IMG/VR virus record: IMGVR_UViG_3300045988_038298
DNA length: 51,717 nt
Origin: a virus
Strand: one strand, 5' to 3'
In this document: in pieces, positions 42,654 through 51,566 of the stretch
Numbering within the stretch: the first letter of the stretch is position 1
Layout: each line of letters starts with the position of its first letter
Notes under the pieces: generated by a model
The model's database searches: none
Told to the model about the DNA's origin: nothing
The model's input: only the letters and a program-made list of their open reading frames with translations
Position numbers and translations under genes: made by a program

Positions 42654-43055
42654 CTACTTTTCGTTCTTTCCAAGAACATTTCTTTCAATGCGATCTTCTA
42701 CTCTACGGTTCATCCACATGAGTGCTTCCTCAATATGAGTAAGTGCACAAGCATTTTCTCTTGACGAAAACGGTCCTGCCTGAAAAGCCTTTAAGCGATC
42801 ACGGACAATTTCCAGTAAATCTGTGTCGATTACACCGTGAAGCGAATCTTTTTCTTTTCGTGGTCCGCACTGCATCTGTAATGTAAGAAGCAGATTCTCC
42901 GGTTCCGCTCTTAACGATGTATCATCATCTTCAAGCGTTGCTGTTCCAGCCTTGTACACACAATATAAGTGATTAGCACCACCTGGACCGATTTCATCTA
43001 CGGCAAATACATCATTTAATTTTTCTCTTTTCTGAATTGTTGATAACTGTTTCAT
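42654..43055 (-). CDS. hypothetical protein (133 aa)
   Basis: Start MKQLSTIQ after RBS ggaaggagg. Confidence 0.5.
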
Positions 43056-43057
43056 TT

Positions 43058-43186
43058 CTAATCCTCCTTCCGTGGCTGTACATTTCCGCAGCCACGGCAA
43101 TATGTTTTTCCATTAACTTCTTTTGTACACATGCAGTTGTGTACTTCATCACATTTCGTTTCATTTACTTCTACATAATCTTTCAT
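43058..43186 (-). CDS. small Cys-rich protein (42 aa)
   Basis: [35 protein letters not shown]... Confidence 0.4.
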
Positions 43187-43192
43187 AATTTT

Positions 43193-43519
43193 CTACTCCT
43201 CATAAATAATATCCAAACCATAAGCAACCGCAGTATCATGCTCGATCTTGCATCCTCTTGCATTCTCCCAGCCCTTGCAGAAGTATGCTGCATGGCACAG
43301 CGACATATTCTCTAACGTCTTAGCAAGATAACATATCGGAATCTGAACTACACCACGTTCTTTCATTGCATCGGCACTGTACCACTCATCTGTGAAAAGA
43401 GTATTTACAACCTCATATCCTTTTTCTTCAAGAACCTTAATTGCTTTCTCTCTTGTTGCTACGATTTCTTCATCAGTCTTTCCAGCCATTGGCTGACTTA
43501 ACATTGCTTTCTTCATCAT
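43193..43519 (-). CDS. DUF4406-like (nucleoside 2-deoxyribosyltransferase-like fold) protein
   Basis: MMKKAMLSQPMAGKTDEEI...; RBS caggagg. Confidence 0.55.
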   Translation of the reverse strand: MMKKAMLSQPMAGKTDEEIVATREKAIKVLEEKGYEVVNTLFTDEWYSADAMKERGVVQIPICYLAKTLENMSLCHAAYFCKGWENARGCKIEHDTAVAYGLDIIYEE

Positions 43520-43818
43520 TAATCCTCCTGTTCGCCAGGACGTTTGCTTATTGGCTCTACTCCAATCAAGCACCCATTTCCGGCATATGCTATAAATTCA
43601 AATTTATTATTCACAACAACCTTTGATGTTTCGCTGAAAGGCTCTATCAGTTGATATGTCTCAAATATTGGCAGATACAGTGCTTTTGGTGTTTGCCAGT
43701 ACAGTTTCCTTTTACCATCAAGTTTCCATCCGGCATCCGTAGTAATTGTCTCAAACCTTAAAATTCCAATAACTTCCTGCCCCGTTGTTTCAATATGTGC
43801 AATTGCTTTTTGTATCAT
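43519..43818 (-). CDS. hypothetical protein (99 aa)
   Basis: ATGA overlap with the upstream gene. Confidence 0.5.
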   Translation of the reverse strand: MIQKAIAHIETTGQEVIGILRFETITTDAGWKLDGKRKLYWQTPKALYLPIFETYQLIEPFSETSKVVVNNKFEFIAYAGNGCLIGVEPISKRPGEQED

Positions 43819-44309
43819 TCCGCAAACAACCAATCTTCAGCAAGCATATCCGCCTGAGAAGCGAGCCATCCCATCTGTACTCCTGATGTTCCGACAAATG
43901 CAATAGCCATGTTTCCGATAGTATCATGTTCACAGTTTACAATTTCTCCATCTGCTGTCTTATAAGAAATACCAGTAGCAAGCTGAATGTACTGCTTCTT
44001 ACCATTCCAACCTTCACGAGCTACTTTACGTCCTTTCTTTAATTGCTTAATAGCTTCACTGAAAGAAAAAGTTGCTTCGCCACCAAGTGCCGGACAGTTC
44101 GTGTCATTCGCAAAAATCCATTCATCGGAGCAAATATTGGTAAATGTGTAATCCACACACTCGGTGCTACGGACATCAATGTCATTACCATCTTTTGTAT
44201 GCATCAGAATTGACTGTGCCGGAATACACCAGAACCAATATCCGGCCCATGATGGAAGTTTTACCTTTGCTCCATGCTTCATTGCTTCAAATGCTTCTTT
44301 AAATGTCAT
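43815..44309 (-). CDS. tandem DUF2829 (Tad2-like) protein
   Basis: Two modules: MTFKEAFEAMKHGAKVKLPSW... and FSFSEAIKQLKKGRKVAREGWNGKKQYI...GWLASQADMLAEDWLF. Confidence 0.65.
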   Translation of the reverse strand: MTFKEAFEAMKHGAKVKLPSWAGYWFWCIPAQSILMHTKDGNDIDVRSTECVDYTFTNICSDEWIFANDTNCPALGGEATFSFSEAIKQLKKGRKVAREGWNGKKQYIQLATGISYKTADGEIVNCEHDTIGNMAIAFVGTSGVQMGWLASQADMLAEDWLFAE

Positions 44310-44324
44310 CGTTCATTTCTCCTT

Positions 44325-44771
44325 TCATTTCATCATCGGAACCATACACGTTTCTTCTATTCTTTCATATTTCCGTTCTAGCTCAAGTTCGTATTTTTTA
44401 ATTTTATAATCGATATTCCCAATTACGTCGTTCTTTTTCTTGTATTCACCAATAACGTGATTTACAAAACAATTGAATTCTTCTCGATTCTGCTCTTCCG
44501 CATTATCGTACAGTTCATCGCCACAAAGCGGTAAGCAATTTTCTCCGGTTACTACGGACAGTAGCAAGATTCCATATGTCTCTTCCGGCAAGTATCTTTC
44601 CTCATGCTTAACAATTATATCTCCCGTCTTAGATACTCCATTTGGTAATGCAGAAAAGCCTACTGCATAACTGCCTGGAATCATTATCCGAAACATCACG
44701 TACTGCGTAATCGAAGTGATTATTGTTCTTTTTTCTTCCTTGTAACGTGGGAATATCGGCATTGTAAACAT
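44325..44771 (-). CDS. hypothetical protein (148 aa)
   Basis: RBS aaaaggag. Confidence 0.5.
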   Translation of the reverse strand: MFTMPIFPRYKEEKRTIITSITQYVMFRIMIPGSYAVGFSALPNGVSKTGDIIVKHEERYLPEETYGILLLSVVTGENCLPLCGDELYDNAEEQNREEFNCFVNHVIGEYKKKNDVIGNIDYKIKKYELELERKYERIEETCMVPMMK

Positions 44772-44795
44772 CTTACAGTCTCCTTTTTTCTGCTT

Positions 44796-45116
44796 CTACA
44801 ACGAACCTACACTCTTAAATGCTTCCTCTATCTTTGGATACTGGATAGCAAACCAGTCCACTATTGTTTCCTCGTGTCCAAACTGTTTGTAATGTTCAAA
44901 GTTCGGTCCTAATCCGCTTTCGTAAAGAAAAGCATGTATGATTTCGTGACGTAACTGTTTCTTCATCAAACAGTCGAAATCACCTAACTTGTTCACGTTA
45001 TCAGTTCTCAATTTGATGATTTTAGATGTATAGTCGCAGTATCCGTCATATTCTGCATCTTTCATCTCTTCACGGATAATTTTATATTCAGTTCCTAATA
45101 CGTTTACTTTTTCCAT
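44796..45116 (-). CDS. small HExxH metallopeptidase-like protein (SprT-like)
   Basis: Start MEKVNVLG after RBS agaggag (the longer track ORF would run into the tRNA-like gene); QLRHEIIHAFLYESG. Confidence 0.55.
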   Translation of the reverse strand: MEKVNVLGTEYKIIREEMKDAEYDGYCDYTSKIIKLRTDNVNKLGDFDCLMKKQLRHEIIHAFLYESGLGPNFEHYKQFGHEETIVDWFAIQYPKIEEAFKSVGSL

Positions 45117-45135
45117 TGCTACTCCTCTCTTAAAA

Positions 45136-45206
45136 ACGAAATAGGAGGGCTCGAACCTCCATCTCCAACTCTCGCGCTGGTGCTTTACCAATTAAGCTAC
45201 ATTTCG
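45136..45206 (-). tRNA. tRNA-like gene with non-canonical anticodon loop (6 nt, or 8 nt if the closing pair opens; no U33)
   Basis: - strand CGAAATG TA GCTT AATTGGTA AAGC A CCAGC GCGAGA GTTGG AGAT GGAGG TTCGAGC CCTCC TATTTCG T. Confidence 0.6.
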
Positions 45207-45922
45207 TGAGCAGGTGGACAGTAATAAAACCACCTCTGCTACGGTTCTTTATACAGTACGAAGAAAATAGTAAACATTGTGACTATCGTGCAAAAATGTG
45301 AATATTAAATCTTTGACGGAACTCCGCAGCTAAAATCCGTCTGTTACATAAATTTCAAACATAATTAGGTCTTCACCTTATTCAATCATGGTAAAAGTCA
45401 TATTCTGCCACTGTGATGATAGGTCTGAGCTTCCGAGAGCGACTCTTGGCTTCCTATCACTGTCTAAGCACACATGGGATTGATACCCACAAATTTCACG
45501 GTTCTTTCAGAATGTTTTGCATAATGTTTTTTCTTATCCTCTTAAAACATTTTTTGAAAATTAAGAACTTGCCATACCGCTACTTTAACAAACCTCTTGT
45601 GTTATACTCCGATTTCTCAGATTCAAGGCAAATCAGCTTATTGAGAATTTCCAGTTAGTCCGTAGCCTCTCACACCACTCACATCACTGGATTATTTCTG
45701 CACCGCAGACGTCTATTAATCACTGACCACAAGGATTCTGCATTTAACTTCTCTATGATGATACACTGCAAGGCATTGTTGATGGTTTCCATCTCCATCA
45801 CCAGAATCACTCCCAGTGGAAAGAATCAGCTTATCCAATATTTCGAATAAGCCTATCTCGTCACCATTGCATCTCGGCATGACTGAAAAATCACTCTTCA
45901 CCGAGGTAATCATATTTGAAAA

Positions 45923-46001
45923 TAGCCGTATAAGGATTCGAACCTCAATCTTTCACTTTGGTAGGGGTAGAATGAACGCTTTACCATTAAGCTATACGGC
46001 T
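45923..46001 (-). tRNA. tRNA-like gene with a 15-nt anticodon loop
   Basis: - strand AGCCGTA TA GCTT AATGGTA AAGC G TTCAT TCTACCCCTACCAAA GTGAA AGAT TGAGG TTCGAAT CCTTA TACGGCT A. Confidence 0.55.
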
Positions 46002-46061
46002 TCCAACTACACTGTAGTAAGGAAAAGTTATGAAAAAGTTTTTTCTCCGAAACTCGGAGAG

Positions 46062-46135
46062 AGCTACCGTTCGGATTCGAACCGAAAACCTGTTGATTCG
46101 TAATCAACTGCTCTATCCATTTGAGCTATGATAGC
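46062..46135 (-). tRNA. tRNA-Arg (anticodon ACG)
   Basis: - strand GCTATCA TA GCTC AAATGGATA GAGC A GTTGA TTACGAA TCAAC AGGTT TTCGG TTCGAAT CCGAA CGGTAGC T; canonical cloverleaf except an A7:C66 mismatch. Confidence 0.85.
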
Positions 46136-46139
46136 TTAA

Positions 46140-46174
46140 GCATCGAGCGTGAACCAAGAAAAACCGCTCGATGC
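46140..46174 (-). other. 10-bp perfect hairpin immediately 5' of tRNA-Arg
   Basis: gcatcgagcg-15 nt-cgctcgatgc. Confidence 0.7.
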
Positions 46175-46297
46175 ATTATTTTAGGTGTTCCCGGGGAGAT
46201 GACAAGAAACCGGGAATAGGCCTGTCCCGGTTATGCTCCGAGTCTGCGTCCTACTAAGGAACAAGCCTTAACCGCCATCTGACGGTTAGTAGCAATA

Positions 46298-46325
46298 TTT
46301 ATAGTGCTGTACATTGCACTGTCAA
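46298..46325 (-). promoter_or_regulatory. sigma70 promoter TTGACA-16-TATAAA upstream of the tRNA cluster
   Basis: - strand ttgacagtgcaatgtacagcactataaa. Confidence 0.6.
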
Positions 46326-46400
46326 GGAATGAAAAACGAATGAACTTTTCGTCCTCAAGTACATAGTACCGTATTCGCTTGCTTTCATTGTCCCCATAAT

Positions 46401-47798
46401 TTACTCATCTTGGAATTTATCAAAGAGAGTTTCGCCTTTGTCACTGGCTTCTTCAATCATTGCTTTCGCTTCTGGCTCTGTCATCCCTTCAAACTTCACG
46501 AAGTACATCCATGCCGGTACTTTTCCCTGTACTACATAATTCCACCAACGAGCACGATCATCTTCAAGGTTGTACACAAGATCTTCAAATTCACATGCCG
46601 TCTGATATCCGGATGCCGTGATCGTTCCATTAGCTGTTCCAGTAGCGTAGAGAATGTATAAGATTCTGTGGATAACTCCATCATGGTTCTTTCCATCAAG
46701 GATTGTTCTGAATGCTTCAATTGTATGTAGCGTTCTTCTATCATCCGATTCAACCTGTGTTGCTGTCTGAATTCCTCTGGTCTCGTCAAACGAGAAGTAA
46801 CCATTTGAGAATCCGCACTTGTATCCGATGATAGACAGATAGAAGTTGATGGCAGCAGTTCTTTCAGCTACCAACATTGTCGGTACGTGTTCTTGAATCG
46901 TGCTGTCTGCATCAATTCCCATTTCAATTCCTCGGACGAATCTAGGAAGTTTGATTCCGTTCTGGCTTGCATACTGAATTGCTGACTGTGACACGAATGT
47001 GATGTGCTGACTATCTTCCTGTTCGTCACCCATCTTGTTTAGCGTGATGTCAAGCCATCTTAACTCTTCAATACATTCAGCGAACACTGGCACTGTAAGA
47101 GGAGATTCCTTATCAATCGCATTCGCATAAGGATTTCTCCAATACACGAACAGCGGATATTCCAATCCTCTTACTTCCACTTCCGGAAGTATGTCTTTCC
47201 ACTCATCTACTTTTTCCAGTGAGATTTCCGAGCCGATACGGTTCTTATCTTCACTCTTGAATGCTTTTGATGAAATCTTATAGACTCTTTCACCATTCAC
47301 ATCCTCAAATCTGTGATATTCTGCTTTTGTGTAGTACCTGTTTCCCTTTTTGATGTATGAGAAGAACACTGCTGCAAGTGCATCACCGTTAGTGTTGGTA
47401 TCTGTGATGATGAAATAATCCGGATCCAGGAACTCAATTCCCTGTCCATCCGTCTTGATCATCATTCCGCAAGTAGCACAGCTTTCTTCCTGTTTCTCCT
47501 GTAAAGTATTCAGCACCTCATCAAATTTCTTCTTGAGTGCATCGTTACCGTCAATCTCTACATTGACATTAAACAGCGTCAAGTTTGCAATCTCACGGCA
47601 AATGACATTAGAGAACCTTGTCGGTCTTATTGTTCCGTCCATGCTCCAAGTAGGAATGCCAGACCTCATGCTCTTATACAAATCTAAGGCAGTCTGCATT
47701 TCAGAAGAGCGACTAACCTCTATTCCAAATATATCTTTTACTTCATTAACTCCAAACATTCTGTTAAATACCGCCTTAATTTTTTGTATTAGTCCCAT
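46401..47798 (-). CDS. portal protein (SPP1 gp6-like)
   Basis: 465 aa directly after TerL with a TAATG overlap. Confidence 0.8.
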   Translation of the reverse strand: MGLIQKIKAVFNRMFGVNEVKDIFGIEVSRSSEMQTALDLYKSMRSGIPTWSMDGTIRPTRFSNVICREIANLTLFNVNVEIDGNDALKKKFDEVLNTLQEKQEESCATCGMMIKTDGQGIEFLDPDYFIITDTNTNGDALAAVFFSYIKKGNRYYTKAEYHRFEDVNGERVYKISSKAFKSEDKNRIGSEISLEKVDEWKDILPEVEVRGLEYPLFVYWRNPYANAIDKESPLTVPVFAECIEELRWLDITLNKMGDEQEDSQHITFVSQSAIQYASQNGIKLPRFVRGIEMGIDADSTIQEHVPTMLVAERTAAINFYLSIIGYKCGFSNGYFSFDETRGIQTATQVESDDRRTLHTIEAFRTILDGKNHDGVIHRILYILYATGTANGTITASGYQTACEFEDLVYNLEDDRARWWNYVVQGKVPAWMYFVKFEGMTEPEAKAMIEEASDKGETLFDKFQDE

Positions 47799-50554: not shown

Positions 50555-50944
50555 CTACTCCCTGTTATTATGATAGTACCACGCTTTTTTTACTCTATCA
50601 ATCATTTTTCTTTCCTTTGGGCTCACATCATATGTTCCTTTTTCATCATGTATATATCCTTTGTGAGTATGCGGATCTTTCTTTTCGCCATTAACTTTAT
50701 GTTCATGTCCGATATCAATTTGTTTAAAATGCTTATTATGTTTATCGTAATAAGTTATGCTTTTAATTTTGTCCCGAGCATTGACAGTGACATATACACG
50801 GCCATTGGTCATCGTCTCTGCTGGTGTTGTTGCTGCTCCGTTTTTATATCTGACAAATTTAATGTTTCCTGACTGATAAAGTGTTTCATATTCTGTTCCA
50901 TATGGTTTATCACTCATCCCACTGGAACTACCTCTACCGCCCAT
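50555..50944 (-). CDS. hypothetical His-rich protein (129 aa)
   Basis: MGGRGSSSG...IDIGHEHKVNG..DPHTHKGYIHDE. Confidence 0.5.
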   Translation of the reverse strand: MGGRGSSSGMSDKPYGTEYETLYQSGNIKFVRYKNGAATTPAETMTNGRVYVTVNARDKIKSITYYDKHNKHFKQIDIGHEHKVNGEKKDPHTHKGYIHDEKGTYDVSPKERKMIDRVKKAWYYHNNRE

Positions 50945-51566
50945 TTATCTTCCTTTCCGTCAATGCTTCTCCGAATGACTTTATCTTTACAATGTTGCCA
51001 CGGCACTCATCCGGTATCATTCCGTAAAAGATGATTGTTTCTGGCTGAAGCCTTGACATCATTTCATTGTATCCATCAAGAAACAGTTTCTTTCTCTCTT
51101 TGCTGTTCATTACACCGACACTGGATACTGCAACAGTTCCACCAACCGGTTCACCATCAAAGCACCAGGAGAATGATTCCTTATCACTCCAACTGATTGT
51201 AGGTATCACATCAATCCCGTTCATCTGCATATAAGCACCAATCCAGTGCTTTCTAAAGTGGTTGTACAACTGTAACGCTTTAGGAAAATCTGTATACGTG
51301 CTGAAGTCAGGACTCATTACACACTTAAAGTCTTGTAACATGTTGATGTAGGTATCTGGCTGCGTCCATAATCTGTTAAACTGATAATCATCAATGAAGA
51401 AGTGTACTCCATGATCTGCTCTATCTTTACAGCTTTTCGCATAGTTGAATGATAGGAATTCGCATGGATTGTATGATGTAGGCTCTATCTGTGGTATTCC
51501 ATATTCGCCAACACCATCAAATAGCATCTTCTGTTGATTTTCGTAGTTCTGTGTACTTCTATACAT
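50934..51566 (-). CDS. DUF4417-like protein
   Basis: HFFIDDYQFNRLW..P..Y...L....CVMSPDFSTYTDFP...QLYN..R..W.G...Q..GI.VIPT..W. Confidence 0.65.
   Translation of the reverse strand: MYRSTQNYENQQKMLFDGVGEYGIPQIEPTSYNPCEFLSFNYAKSCKDRADHGVHFFIDDYQFNRLWTQPDTYINMLQDFKCVMSPDFSTYTDFPKALQLYNHFRKHWIGAYMQMNGIDVIPTISWSDKESFSWCFDGEPVGGTVAVSSVGVMNSKERKKLFLDGYNEMMSRLQPETIIFYGMIPDECRGNIVKIKSFGEALTERKINGR

What the first reader, a model, noticed from the sequence alone, without database searches (positions are those of the whole stretch)
45136..46135. tRNA cluster in which two of three members have aberrant anticodon loops
All three elements have good acceptor, D and T arms. Only the Arg(ACG) tRNA at 46062-46135 has a normal 7-nt anticodon loop. 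The element at 45136-45206 has stem CCAGC/GTTGG closing a 6-nt loop GCGAGA, or an 8-nt loop if the closing C-G pair opens, and no U33. The element at 45923-46001 has stem TTCAT/GTGAA closing a 15-nt loop TCTACCCCTACCAAA. Possible explanations are decayed pseudogenes, frameshift or suppressor-type tRNAs, decoys or anticodon-nuclease-resistant variants (phage tRNAs have been reported to escape host anticodon nucleases through loop changes), or tRNA-like handles of the adjacent long RNA.
Basis: seen in the sequence. Interest (0 to 1): 0.65.

Follow-up and report, generated by a model that had tools for sequence, protein, structure and literature searches.

The report
tRNA-shaped, non-decoding modules flanking ROOL RNA
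The two odd "tRNAs" are real, conserved tRNA-shaped RNAs that have lost a usable anticodon loop and bracket a ROOL nanocage RNA in a gut-phage accessory cassette, where they most likely act as cutting signals for host tRNA-processing enzymes rather than as decoders.

Summary
On the minus strand lie a normal tRNA-Arg(ACG) (46135-46062), a tRNA body with a 15-nt G-free loop (46001-45923) and a tRNA body with a 6-nt loop (45206-45136). The "adjacent long RNA" is a full-length ROOL RNA (Rfam RF03087, 363 bits, 45929-45347). Element #2 ends exactly where ROOL's closing helix begins. Element #3 lies 140 nt after ROOL and 19 nt before the next gene.

Neither oddity is private to this phage. The 15-nt-loop family occurs in about 60 IMG/VR contigs and the 6-nt-loop family in about 21. 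Both cloverleaves hold (96-97 % of cells paired, 9 compensatory pairs each). In 111 non-redundant ROOL loci a tRNA or tRNA-like body abuts the ROOL 5' end in about 92 of 101 scorable cases; CCA is never encoded.

Best reading: non-decoding tRNA-shaped punctuation that makes RNase P and RNase Z release ROOL and separate it from its neighbours. The window's loop motif recurs on an unrelated scaffold, and many other loop-substituted tRNA bodies populate these arrays, so the loops may have a function of their own. The cassette sits in an anti-defence island (Tad2-like, Acb2/Tad1-like genes). Frameshift tRNAs and plain pseudogenes are disfavoured. No processing was shown directly.

The parts
46178..46205 (-). 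Promoter-like site TTGTCA-N16-TAAAAT at the head of the RNA cassette, inside a conserved leader of about 130 nt
   Evidence: best match in the region (10 of 12), although the number of sites does not exceed shuffles; same sequence and spacing in many window-type loci.
46140..46175 (-). Leader hairpin GCATCGAGCG...CGCTCGATGC just upstream of tRNA-Arg
   Evidence: Read from the sequence. Conserved in relatives, with an A/G-T/C change on both arms in L026.
46062..46135 (-). Canonical tRNA-Arg(ACG), 7-nt loop, no encoded CCA
   Evidence: In relatives the same scaffold carries Lys(UUU) or His(AUG) anticodons.
46002..46061 (-). Spacer A, with a conserved small hairpin ACUAC-AGU-GUAGU (46006-46018)
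   Evidence: the variant GCUAC...GUAGC keeps the pairing. No Rfam match.
45923..46001 (-). tRNA-like element #2: intact acceptor, D and T arms; anticodon stem closing a 15-nt G-free loop (45957-45971) that reads roughly as two copies of CUACCC; discriminator A45923 is the first paired base of ROOL P1
   Evidence: Family alignment A2. Pair counts: 96.8 % paired, 9 pairs with double changes. About 60 contigs.
45347..45929 (-). ROOL RNA, full length. Its predicted mature 5' end is at 45922 if RNase Z cuts after the discriminator of #2
   Evidence: RF03087, 363.3 bits, E = 1.9e-83, model 1-574. Junction geometry.
45207..45346 (-). Spacer B: a 140-nt conserved, structured stretch (closing stem GCUGCGG/CCGUAGC, then hairpin AGAGGUGG...CCACCUGCU) between ROOL and #3
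   Evidence: MFE -27.2 kcal/mol; not tested against shuffles. 87 % identity among 12 loci. No Rfam match.
45136..45206 (-). tRNA-like element #3: intact acceptor (an eighth pair A-1:U73 is possible), D and T arms; anticodon stem closing the 6-nt loop GCGAGA (45170-45175). It is a paralogue of #2: D arm identical apart from one extra U, variable region AGAU identical
   Evidence: Alignment A3. Pair counts: 96.1 % paired, 9 pairs with double changes. About 21 contigs.
44796..45116 (-). First gene after the cassette: a small HExxH-motif protein (HEIIH). Its Shine-Dalgarno GAGAGGAG and ATG begin 19 nt after #3
   Evidence: phrog_1233, function unknown. A homologous domain lies next to ROOL cassettes in 39 loci. 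No match in Pfam, NCBIfam or PDB.
43815..44309 (-). Tad2-like protein (Thoeris anti-defence 2 domain)
   Evidence: PF11195, E = 2.4e-26. A homologous cluster lies next to the cassette in 48 loci.
42654..43055 (-). Protein with an Acb2/Tad1 hairpin domain (cyclic-nucleotide sponge family)
   Evidence: PF24729, E = 1.6e-8, above the curated cut-off.

Best explanation
Elements #2 and #3 are non-decoding, tRNA-shaped RNA modules. They belong to a conserved, probably self-transcribed cassette: leader, tRNA-Arg, #2, ROOL, spacer B, #3. The cassette is carried by phages and prophages of gut Clostridia.

Selection keeps the parts of a tRNA that the host processing enzymes read: the 7-bp acceptor stem, the T arm with its GTTCGA loop, and the D loop with GG that forms the elbow. 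The anticodon loop has been released from decoding.

Proposed mechanism (inferred, not shown):
- The cassette is transcribed as one precursor.
- RNase P cuts at the 5' end of each tRNA body.
- RNase Z cuts after each discriminator, because no CCA is encoded and a U-rich trailer follows.
- The RNase Z cut after #2 creates the ROOL 5' end flush with helix P1.
- The RNase P cut before #3 frees ROOL plus spacer B.
- The RNase Z cut after #3 leaves the downstream mRNA with a 19-nt leader that contains its Shine-Dalgarno sequence.

The released 79-nt and 71-nt tRNA-shaped RNAs may have a further role through their loops.
For: Shown:
(1) All three are tRNA bodies by two covariance models.
(2) #2 directly abuts a full-length ROOL. 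Rfam pairs discriminator A45923 as the first base of P1.
(3) In 47 loci with an ARAGORN-callable junction tRNA, P1 starts within a few nt of the discriminator. CCA is never encoded, and T follows the discriminator in 45 of 47.
(4) Among 111 non-redundant ROOL loci, 101 could be scored at the 5' junction. The slot holds a canonical tRNA in 50, an aberrant tRNA-like body in about 42, and nothing in 9. The first slot 3' of ROOL holds a tRNA or tRNA-like body in 101 of 104. Where the junction tRNA is canonical (Trp, Met, Asn, Ile, Arg), it can only mature if it is cut at exactly the ROOL 5' end. The cut is therefore obligatory there, and #2 occupies the homologous place.
(5) The cloverleaf is under selection in both aberrant families: 96.8 % and 96.1 % of cells paired against 31-53 % when the partners are slid, and 9 pairs with double-sided changes in each.
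(6) The anticodon arm is the dispensable part. In the same junction slot it has a 9, 10, 11, 12, 14 or 15-nt loop, is deleted altogether (61-nt element in L022 and L105), is reduced to a three-armed element (L024, L030), or carries an insert of about 80 nt (149-nt element in L038, L058, L094, L098).
(7) Aberrant bodies are enriched at the ROOL 5' junction: about 46 % against 15 % at non-adjacent array positions. One search gives an odds ratio of 3.8 before the hand correction. The loci are related, so the p-value is only indicative.

Established knowledge, recalled from memory: RNase P and RNase Z recognise the acceptor/T-arm domain and elbow, not the anticodon. In Bacillus, CCA-less precursors are matured by RNase Z. 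MALAT1-mascRNA is the precedent for a long RNA's end being made by RNase P at a tRNA-like element (PMC8457004, PMC11693755; listing abstracts only).
Against: - No transcript-end data exist for this cassette, so every cleavage step is inferred.
- 47 aberrant tRNA-like bodies lie at array positions not adjacent to ROOL. ROOL-end formation therefore cannot be the whole story.
- Nine ROOL loci have no tRNA body at the 5' junction, and the RACE-mapped L. salivarius ROOL paper contains no mention of flanking tRNAs. ROOL does not strictly need one.
- The loop motif ATCCTACCCCTAC is shared with an unrelated Met-like scaffold. Junction-slot loops are consistently C-rich and G-poor: by my hand count from the sequences G and 42 C in 86 nt over six subfamilies. 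This hints that the loops are selected, which pure punctuation does not predict.
- Derivatives that have lost ROOL still carry a largely intact #2.
- In some variants the top one or two acceptor pairs are mismatched.
Confidence: 0.55

Rival explanations
1. Natural tRNA scaffolds. The functional part is the loop insert: a C-rich, G-free single strand in #2 and the RCRAGA hexaloop in #3. The tRNA body only provides processing, folding and stability, in the way engineered tRNA scaffolds do. The loops would bind an RNA (for example a G-rich or Shine-Dalgarno-like site) or a protein. This does not exclude the best explanation.
For: - The 13-mer ATCCTACCCCTAC occurs both in the #2 scaffold (L026, L055) and in a 96-nt element built on a Met-like scaffold at -711..-616, not adjacent to ROOL (L059, L084, L087 and others).
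- A second arm, GGUCAG-AAGCGCGCGAYAAYA..-CUGAC, sits on three different acceptor scaffolds.
- The junction-slot loops of six subfamilies are C-rich and almost free of G (sequences; hand count).
- The same scaffold carries an Ile(UAU) arm, a Lys(UUU) arm or the 6-nt-loop arm, so the arms behave as exchangeable modules.
- 47 loop-substituted bodies lie away from ROOL.
Against: - No complementary target was found. The best antisense match in the window (GGTAGAGGTAG at 50938, one mismatch) is at chance level, and RNAduplex finds nothing in the cassette.
- Within the close family the loop is no better conserved than the stems.
- Loop length varies from 9 to 15 nt.
- The motif is seen on only two scaffolds. 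Recombination between related arrays could explain that without any selection.
Confidence: 0.25
2. Decoys or competitive inhibitors of tRNA-targeting immune nucleases (anticodon nucleases, PARIS AriB, retron effectors, OLD, Schlafen-type, Cas13/Cas12a3-type). The enzyme binds the tRNA-shaped body but cannot cleave it productively, because the anticodon loop is absent or altered.
For: - The cassette lies in an island with recognised anti-defence genes (Tad2-like, Acb2/Tad1-hairpin).
- A Tad2-like gene neighbours the cassette in 48 loci.
- The arrays are rich in isoacceptors that I recall as nuclease targets (Lys-UUU, Arg-ACG, Tyr, Asn, Gln, Ser, Met, Trp).
- Phage tRNAs as counter-defence is an established idea (listing abstracts of PMC11464382, PMC11555353, PMC12445682 and PMC12803027).
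- #3 shares its scaffold with tRNA-Lys(UUU) and tRNA-Ile(UAU).
Against: - The support is guilt by association only.
- Anticodon nucleases generally read the anticodon loop, which these elements lack, so binding is doubtful.
- No tRNA-targeting system or tRNA-repair gene was identified in the window, though only the ten proteins nearest the cassette and two ORFs near its upstream end were scanned.
- Published escape tRNAs keep a normal, decoding loop (recalled from memory).
Confidence: 0.12
3. Plain pseudogenes: dead tRNA copies that hitch-hike with a mobile ROOL cassette and have not yet decayed.
For: - Canonical tRNAs occupy the same slots in related loci.
- The whole cassette is 87-96 % identical among the 12 closest loci, so some of the conservation is simply recent ancestry.
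- The 15-nt loop looks like a tandem duplication of CTACCC; a one-unit version exists (L148), and 14-nt versions too.
- #2 persists after ROOL deletion.
Against: - Compensatory double changes occur in all four helices between sublineages that all have aberrant loops.
- U8, A14, the GG of the D loop and the GTTCGA T loop stay invariant.
- The T arm of #3 is fully re-paired in the L017/L101 lineage (UCAGG/CCUGA against GGAGG/CCUCC), with the 6-nt loop retained.
- Decay would hit the acceptor and T arms as readily as the loop. It does not.
Confidence: 0.08
4. Working decoders with unusual loops: doublet, quadruplet or frameshift-suppressor tRNAs.
For: ARAGORN can force anticodons onto relatives: (ga), (aa), (cccc), Gly(ccc), Gly(acc) and Lys(ctt).
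Against: - There is no U33 or purine-37 frame.
- Loop lengths are 6, 9-15 and 26 nt, and in some relatives the arm is missing altogether.
- The window copies lack the identity elements of anticodon-independent synthetases: no G3:U70, no long variable arm, no G-1 (identity rules recalled from memory).
- Loop length varies among close relatives, which a decoder would not tolerate.
Confidence: 0.03

Closest known systems
ROOL RNA (Rfam RF03087) and GOLLD RNA in phage and prophage tRNA islands
   Same: The window's long RNA is a full-length ROOL. The literature states that ROOL and GOLLD are often near tRNAs and in prophages, suggests co-transcription, and reports tRNAs embedded in some GOLLD RNAs (PMC5737381, PMC12286853, PMC12990946).
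   Different: Those papers treat the neighbours as ordinary tRNAs. I found no description of three things seen here: the flush tRNA-ROOL junction, the conserved families of loop-substituted tRNA bodies in the flanking slots, or the anti-defence gene neighbourhood. The searchable library is incomplete.
MALAT1-mascRNA and MEN-beta-menRNA (a tRNA-like element that sets the end of a long non-coding RNA)
   Same: A tRNA-shaped element without a decoding anticodon loop is attached to a long structured RNA. RNase P, and then RNase Z, cut there and so define the long RNA's end (PMC8457004, PMC11693755; listing abstracts). Works like: yes, by inference.
   Different: That system is eukaryotic and nuclear, has a single 3' element, and is not homologous. 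Here there are two elements, one on each side, in a phage polycistronic tRNA array. Cleavage has not been shown here.
Engineered tRNA scaffolds for RNA expression (anticodon arm replaced by a cargo RNA)
   Same: The architecture is the same: intact acceptor, D and T arms with the anticodon loop replaced by an insert of 6-80 nt.
   Different: The scaffolds are a laboratory design, recalled from memory. Here the pattern is natural, and the cargo's function, if any, is unknown.
Phage tRNAs that evade or neutralise tRNA-cleaving defences (T5 tRNA-Lys against PARIS, retron evasion, mycobacteriophage anticodon-loop variants)
   Same: They are encoded in phage tRNA clusters with a counter-defence rationale, and the anticodon loop is the part that differs from host tRNAs (PMC11464382, PMC11555353; listing abstracts).
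   Different: As I recall that literature, those are functional decoders with 7-nt loops and point substitutions. #2 and #3 cannot decode.
Small stable RNAs co-transcribed with the phage T4 tRNA cluster, and the 3'ETS(leuZ) sponge RNA of E. coli (recalled from memory)
   Same: Non-tRNA RNAs are released from tRNA precursors by the tRNA-processing machinery.
   Different: They are unrelated in sequence, and they are not tRNA bodies with substituted loops.

Membership tests
tRNA (Rfam RF00005), structural membership | Cloverleaf with a 7-bp acceptor stem and D and T arms, scoring above the family's gathering threshold | tested here: met
   56.9 and 51.6 bits against a gathering score of 29. U8, A14, the D-loop GG and the GTTCGA T loop are invariant. 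Covariation.
Decoding tRNA (functional membership) | 7-nt anticodon loop with U33 and a purine at position 37 | tested here: not met
   The loops are GCGAGA (6 nt) and TCTACCCCTACCAAA (15 nt). ARAGORN gives no isotype for #3 and does not call #2.
Decoding tRNA (functional membership) | Aminoacylation by a synthetase | not testable with these tools
   Indirect only: the window copies have no G3:U70, no long variable arm and no G-1.
ROOL RNA (RF03087), for the adjacent long RNA | Full-length match to the covariance model above the gathering score | tested here: met
   363.3 bits against 99.1, model positions 1-574.
tRNA-like end-forming elements (mascRNA type) | tRNA-shaped fold without a conserved anticodon loop, placed at the end of a long non-coding RNA | tested here: met
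   #2 abuts the ROOL 5' end. #3 follows ROOL after 140 nt. The anticodon arm varies or is absent in the same slot.
tRNA-like end-forming elements (mascRNA type) | Actual cleavage by RNase P and RNase Z, and CCA addition | not testable with these tools
   Supporting only: no encoded CCA, and a U follows the discriminator in 45 of 47 junctions.
Frameshift-suppressor or quadruplet-decoding tRNAs | 8-nt (rarely 9-nt) loop that keeps U33 and an extended anticodon | tested here: not met
   The window loops are 6 and 15 nt. Only one relative (L065) is called with an 8-nt loop, and my own parse of the same sequence gives a 4-bp stem with a 12-nt loop.
tRNA pseudogene | Relaxed constraint over the whole molecule (broken helices, lost tertiary nucleotides) and no conservation of the defect | tested here: not met
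   96-97 % of cells paired, with 9 compensatory pairs per family. The defects are conserved in about 60 and about 21 contigs.
Anticodon-nuclease-escape phage tRNAs | Functional decoder with substitutions in an otherwise normal 7-nt loop | tested here: not met
   The loop lengths are not 7 nt.
CRISPR-repeat mimics or any other curated RNA family in the spacers | A match to an Rfam model | tested here: not met
   A permissive scan (E up to 5) of 44900-46450 returned only ROOL, the three tRNA hits and two noise hits.

The most novel reading that the evidence does not exclude
The ROOL-linked tRNA arrays of gut Clostridia phages encode a whole repertoire of natural tRNA scaffolds: tRNA bodies whose anticodon arm is replaced by exchangeable RNA modules. 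Examples are the C-rich (CUACCC)n loop, the RCRAGA hexaloop, an arm with a palindromic GCGCGC loop, and structured inserts of about 80 nt. Together with the ROOL nanocage they would form an RNA-based arm of phage counter-defence, acting as decoys, sponges or adaptors for tRNA-directed immune nucleases or for ROOL cargo, and expressed from the same islands as Tad2 and Acb2/Tad1 protein sponges.
Probability: 0.2. Interest if true: 0.85.

Novelty: new variant of a known kind. Interest (0 to 1): 0.6.

Why it matters
ROOL and GOLLD have atomic structures (RNA-only nanocages) but no known function and no defined biogenesis.

If flanking tRNA-shaped modules set ROOL's ends, its maturation becomes directly testable with RNase P/Z assays and end mapping. 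The natural termini would also then be known for structural and functional work.

The recurring link with Tad2-like and Acb2/Tad1-like genes gives a concrete hypothesis for ROOL's role, counter-defence, that can be tested in laboratory strains.

Conserved tRNA bodies with substituted anticodon arms would be a natural counterpart of engineered tRNA scaffolds. They are also a class of elements that standard tRNA finders miss (#2) or label 'undetermined' (#3).

If instead they are only processing punctuation, the result is modest: a tidy bacterial-virus analogue of MALAT1-mascRNA.

Tried and rejected
- **Cultured relatives.** A blastn search of 45100-46200 against 50,697 phage records found only 57-nt tRNA-Arg matches in two Rhodococcus phages, so no annotated relative exists.
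- **Antisense target for the #2 loop.** Apart from the loop's own complementary strand at 45960, the only near-match in the window (50938, one mismatch) is at chance level by my estimate (about 0.8 expected). RNAduplex found nothing in the cassette.
- **Loop to D-loop pairing.** This appears in the MFE of #2. I rejected it because D-loop variants (GGCA, GGAA) are not matched by changes in the loop.
- **Sarcin-ricin-loop mimicry by #3 (ACGAGAG).** Rejected: the GCAAGA variants lack it.
- **CRISPR-repeat mimicry.** I considered the spacer-A hairpin (resemblance to a Cas12a handle) and the #2 loop (resemblance to a Cas13a repeat), both from memory. No CRISPR-DR or other Rfam hit appeared even at E up to 5, and the second half of a repeat hairpin is absent. 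Not pursued further.
- **Wider search for the loop motifs.** ATCCTACCCCTACNC and GGTCAGNAGCGCGCGA gave 120+ and 81 stretches, almost all chance. Among the newly fetched loci, only 2 of 91 and 5 of 63 distinct contexts lie in a tRNA context, all from the same phage group.
- **Experimental ROOL ends.** The L. salivarius ROOL paper has RACE-mapped ends but contains no mention of flanking tRNAs, so it is uninformative on processing.
- **HExxH protein.** No match in Pfam, NCBIfam or PDB. I did not model its structure because it is tangential.
- **Slot statistics.** The first version mis-parsed several loci. I corrected it and then reclassified eight further loci by hand.
Full report
**1. What is there**

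All features lie on the minus strand. Rfam at gathering thresholds finds four RNAs in the window:
- a tRNA at 46135-46062 (57.2 bits);
- a tRNA at 46001-45923 (56.9 bits);
- a full-length ROOL RNA (RF03087) at 45929-45347 (363.3 bits, model 1-574);
- a tRNA at 45206-45136 (51.6 bits).

ARAGORN calls the first tRNA-Arg(ACG). It calls the last 'tRNA-???' with a two-base anticodon, and it misses the middle one.
- #2 has stem TTCAT/GTGAA around TCTACCCCTACCAAA (45971-45957);
- #3 has stem CCAGC/GTTGG around GCGAGA (45175-45170).

A tRNA model that I built from 33 canonical tRNAs of related loci scores the three at 71.0, 54.4 and 52.3 bits.

**2. Anatomy of the locus**

The gene order is TerS, TerL, portal, then the RNA cassette, then five small genes, then minor head protein, scaffold and major head protein.
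- The cassette starts with a conserved leader of about 130 nt. It contains a promoter-like TTGTCA-N16-TAAAAT (46205-46178) and a hairpin.
- Discriminator A45923 of #2 is the first paired nucleotide of ROOL helix P1 in the Rfam alignment.
- ROOL is followed by a structured 140-nt spacer, and then by #3.
- #3 ends 19 nt before the ATG (45116) of a small HExxH protein. That stretch contains the Shine-Dalgarno sequence GAGAGGAG.
- No intrinsic terminator separates these parts. The only terminator-like call in that stretch is the T arm of #3 itself.
- #2 and #3 are paralogues. The D arm UAGCUUAAU(U)GGUAAAGC is identical apart from one extra U, and the variable region AGAU is identical.

**3. Relatives**

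No cultured phage carries the cassette. An exact ROOL motif retrieved 114 IMG/VR loci and 8 genome contigs. The genome contigs come from gut Clostridia: Clostridium spp., Dorea, Roseburia, Lachnospiraceae and Ruminococcaceae. Signature searches found the #2 family in 60 contigs and the #3 family in 21.

Relative to the ROOL motif, a tRNA almost always ends at -286 to -293, that is, at the ROOL 5' end, and another follows ROOL. In 47 loci with an ARAGORN-callable junction tRNA, P1 begins within a few nucleotides of the discriminator. None encodes CCA, and a T follows the discriminator in 45.

Counts among 111 non-redundant loci (plus hand correction of eight loci):

| Position | Canonical tRNA | Aberrant tRNA-like | None |
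|---|---|---|---|
| ROOL 5' junction (101 scorable) | 50 (Trp, Met, Asn, Ile, Arg) | about 42 | 9 |
| First slot 3' of ROOL (104 scorable) | 82 | 19 | 3 |
| Non-adjacent array positions | 260 | 47 | not scored |

**4. The aberrant loops are conserved types, not private lesions**

In the junction slot the anticodon arm appears in these forms:
- TTCAT-TCTACCCCTACC(A/C)AA-GTGAA;
- 14-nt versions (TCTACCCTACCCAA, ...TATCC..., ...TACTC...);
- TTCGT-TCTTACCCTACCCGG-ACGAA, with a compensated stem;
- a one-unit version, TCTTACCCCA (L148);
- GTGT-TACTCCCCC(C)TT-ACGC;
- TAAAAG-GATCCCTCT-CTTTTA;
- complete loss of the arm (61-nt elements);
- a three-armed element;
- an Arg-type scaffold with a structured insert of about 80 nt (149 nt in total).

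The #3 loop is RCRAGA (GCGAGA, GCAAGA, ACGAGA, ACAAGA) in 13 distinct sequences. Two of them have a fully re-paired T arm. The same acceptor and T-arm scaffold carries a normal tRNA-Ile(UAU) or tRNA-Lys(UUU) anticodon arm in other loci.

Pair counts on the named cloverleaf:

| Family | Cells paired | Paired when partners are slid | Pairs with changes on both sides | Shuffles reaching the observed value |
|---|---|---|---|---|
| #2 | 96.8 % | 31-52 % | 9 | 0 of 500 |
| #3 | 96.1 % | 35-53 % | 9 | 0 of 500 |

U8, A14, the D-loop GG and the T-loop GTTCGA are invariant or nearly so. So the tRNA body is under selection, and the anticodon arm is the part that has been freed.

One caveat. The 12 closest loci are 87-96 % identical across the whole cassette, and within that group the loops are no more variable than the stems. 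The evidence about the loops therefore comes from comparisons between subfamilies.

**5. ROOL is dispensable, and the repeats mediate its loss**

Several contigs carry deletion derivatives:
- L150-152 hold a chimera in which the 5' half of #2 is joined to the 3' half of #3 in their shared D arm. ROOL is excised and the acceptor stem no longer pairs.
- L118-type loci join ROOL nucleotide ~142 to the T arm of #3 through the microhomology TGGAGATGGA.
- L115-type loci keep only the P1 stem.

The published finding that ROOL is non-essential in L. salivarius fits this (PMC12286853).

**6. A wider phenomenon**

The covariance model found many further tRNA bodies that ARAGORN rejects. All are on the ROOL strand, and they fall into distinct families:
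- 83-84-nt elements with the arm GGUCAG-AAGCGCGCGAYAAYA..-CUGAC, on three different acceptor scaffolds;
- 68-, 62-, 58- and 47-nt mini-elements;
- 81- and 83-nt elements with other inserts;
- a 96-nt element on a Met-like scaffold. Its loop contains ATCCTACCCCTAC, the same 13-mer as the L026/L055 variant of #2.

By my hand count, junction-slot loops from six subfamilies hold 5 G and 42 C in 86 nt. Motif scans of IMG/VR gave mostly chance hits; copies in a tRNA context occur only in this phage group. These facts suggest that the arms are exchangeable modules and may be selected for themselves. I found no target for them.

**7. Context**

Of the five genes between the cassette and the head genes:
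- one has Tad2-like domains (PF11195, 2.4e-26);
- one has an Acb2/Tad1 hairpin domain (PF24729, 1.6e-8);
- one is DUF4406, similar to nucleoside 2-deoxyribosyltransferases;
- two are unknown, including the HExxH protein.

Across ROOL loci the commonest neighbours on the same strand are a Tad2-like protein (48 loci), the HExxH domain (39), DUF4406 (37) and DUF6275 (33). The cassette is therefore part of an anti-defence accessory island. Among the 12 closest loci the downstream CDS averages only about 67 % identity, and in other ROOL loci different genes, such as a terminase, follow the cassette. I found no paper that links ROOL or GOLLD with anti-defence genes.

**8. Interpretation**

The best-supported mechanism is tRNA-type punctuation. 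Host RNase P and RNase Z recognise the acceptor/T-arm domain and the elbow of each body and cut the precursor. This gives ROOL a 5' end flush with P1, frees it from the tRNAs, and separates it from the downstream mRNA.

The key argument is homology of position. Where the junction element is a canonical tRNA, the cut at the ROOL 5' end is obligatory for that tRNA to function, and #2 sits in exactly that place. The closest mechanistic precedent is MALAT1-mascRNA (PMC8457004, PMC11693755).

What is shown: the structures, the junction geometry, the conservation and covariation, and the slot statistics. What is inferred: every cleavage step, the lack of aminoacylation, and co-transcription.

Punctuation alone leaves three things unexplained: the shared loop motif, the C-rich composition of the loops, and the 47 aberrant bodies away from ROOL. 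I therefore keep 'natural tRNA scaffold with a functional loop' and 'decoy for tRNA-directed immunity' as live rivals. Decoding and plain decay I rate as unlikely.

**9. Novelty and score**

The proximity of ROOL to tRNAs is published (PMC5737381, PMC12286853). I did not find three things in the searchable literature: the flush junction, the conserved non-decoding tRNA-shaped families that flank ROOL, and the anti-defence neighbourhood.

I file the finding as a new variant of a known kind (tRNA-like processing elements attached to a long non-coding RNA). Interest is 0.6. It gives ROOL a testable biogenesis and a testable functional context, but no function is demonstrated.

Noticed in passing
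window 42654-45116 (minus strand): An accessory island sits between the portal and minor-head genes. It holds a Tad2-like protein (43815-44309), a DUF4406/nucleoside-deoxyribosyltransferase-like protein (43193-43513), an Acb2/Tad1-hairpin protein (42654-43055), a small HExxH protein (44796-45116) and an ORF with no match (44325-44771). Tad2-like, HExxH, DUF4406 and DUF6275 genes recur next to ROOL cassettes in 33-48 loci.
   Followed up: partly
L004, L018, L042, L051, L054, L079, L082, L096, L153, L154 (for example L004 9690-9772): 83-84-nt tRNA bodies whose anticodon arm is GGUCAG-AAGCGCGCGAYAAYA..-CUGAC. The loop contains a palindromic GCGCGC, which from memory resembles kissing-dimer loops. 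The arm sits on three different acceptor scaffolds, usually at the start of the array.
   Followed up: partly
L038 7100-7248, L058 454-602, L094 3995-4143, L098 2326-2474: A 149-nt Arg-type tRNA scaffold abutting ROOL, with a structured insert of about 80 nt between the anticodon-stem strands GUUGC/GCAAC. It looks like a natural 'tRNA scaffold with cargo'.
   Followed up: no
L059 6094-6189 and about 95 nt downstream; also L084, L087, L175, L239: A 96-nt element on a Met-like scaffold carries the loop motif of #2 (ATCCTACCCCTAC). A second copy of the motif (CCTACCCTAC) lies downstream, in a hairpin whose 3' strand CCGGTAGGG is complementary to it.
   Followed up: partly
ROOL loci generally (for example L007, L044, L098 compared with the window's 46062-46135): Anticodon switching on constant scaffolds. 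The Arg(ACG) scaffold also appears as Lys(UUU) and His(AUG). The Ile(UAU) scaffold also appears as Lys(UUU). This suggests rapid re-assignment of the tRNAs in these arrays.
   Followed up: no
L150-L152, L118/119/121/128/134/144, L115/120/126/132/133/136/145, L124, L127: Repeated independent deletions of ROOL. One route is recombination between the D arms of #2 and #3, which leaves a chimeric, non-pairing tRNA-like scar. Another uses a 10-nt microhomology.
   Followed up: yes
window 45207-45346 (minus strand): Spacer B between ROOL and #3 is conserved (87 % among 12 loci) and is predicted to be structured (-27.2 kcal/mol; closing stem GCUGCGG/CCGUAGC). It may be an extra domain of this ROOL subtype or a separate small RNA. 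It has no Rfam match.
   Followed up: partly
window 46006-46018 (minus strand): A conserved small hairpin ACUAC-AGU-GUAGU lies between tRNA-Arg and #2, with a compensated GCUAC/GUAGC variant in relatives. From memory it resembles a Cas12a repeat handle. No Rfam CRISPR-DR hit.
   Followed up: partly
L041 and L084, downstream of the cassette: Large-terminase genes of 912 and 927 aa follow the ROOL cassette in other phage lineages. From their length and from sequence motifs read by eye they appear to contain an intein; I did not scan them against any library.
   Followed up: no
window 50934-51566 and 50555-50944 (minus strand): A DUF4417 protein (PF14386, 5e-62) lies next to a small protein with no family match, upstream of the terminase genes.
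   Followed up: no
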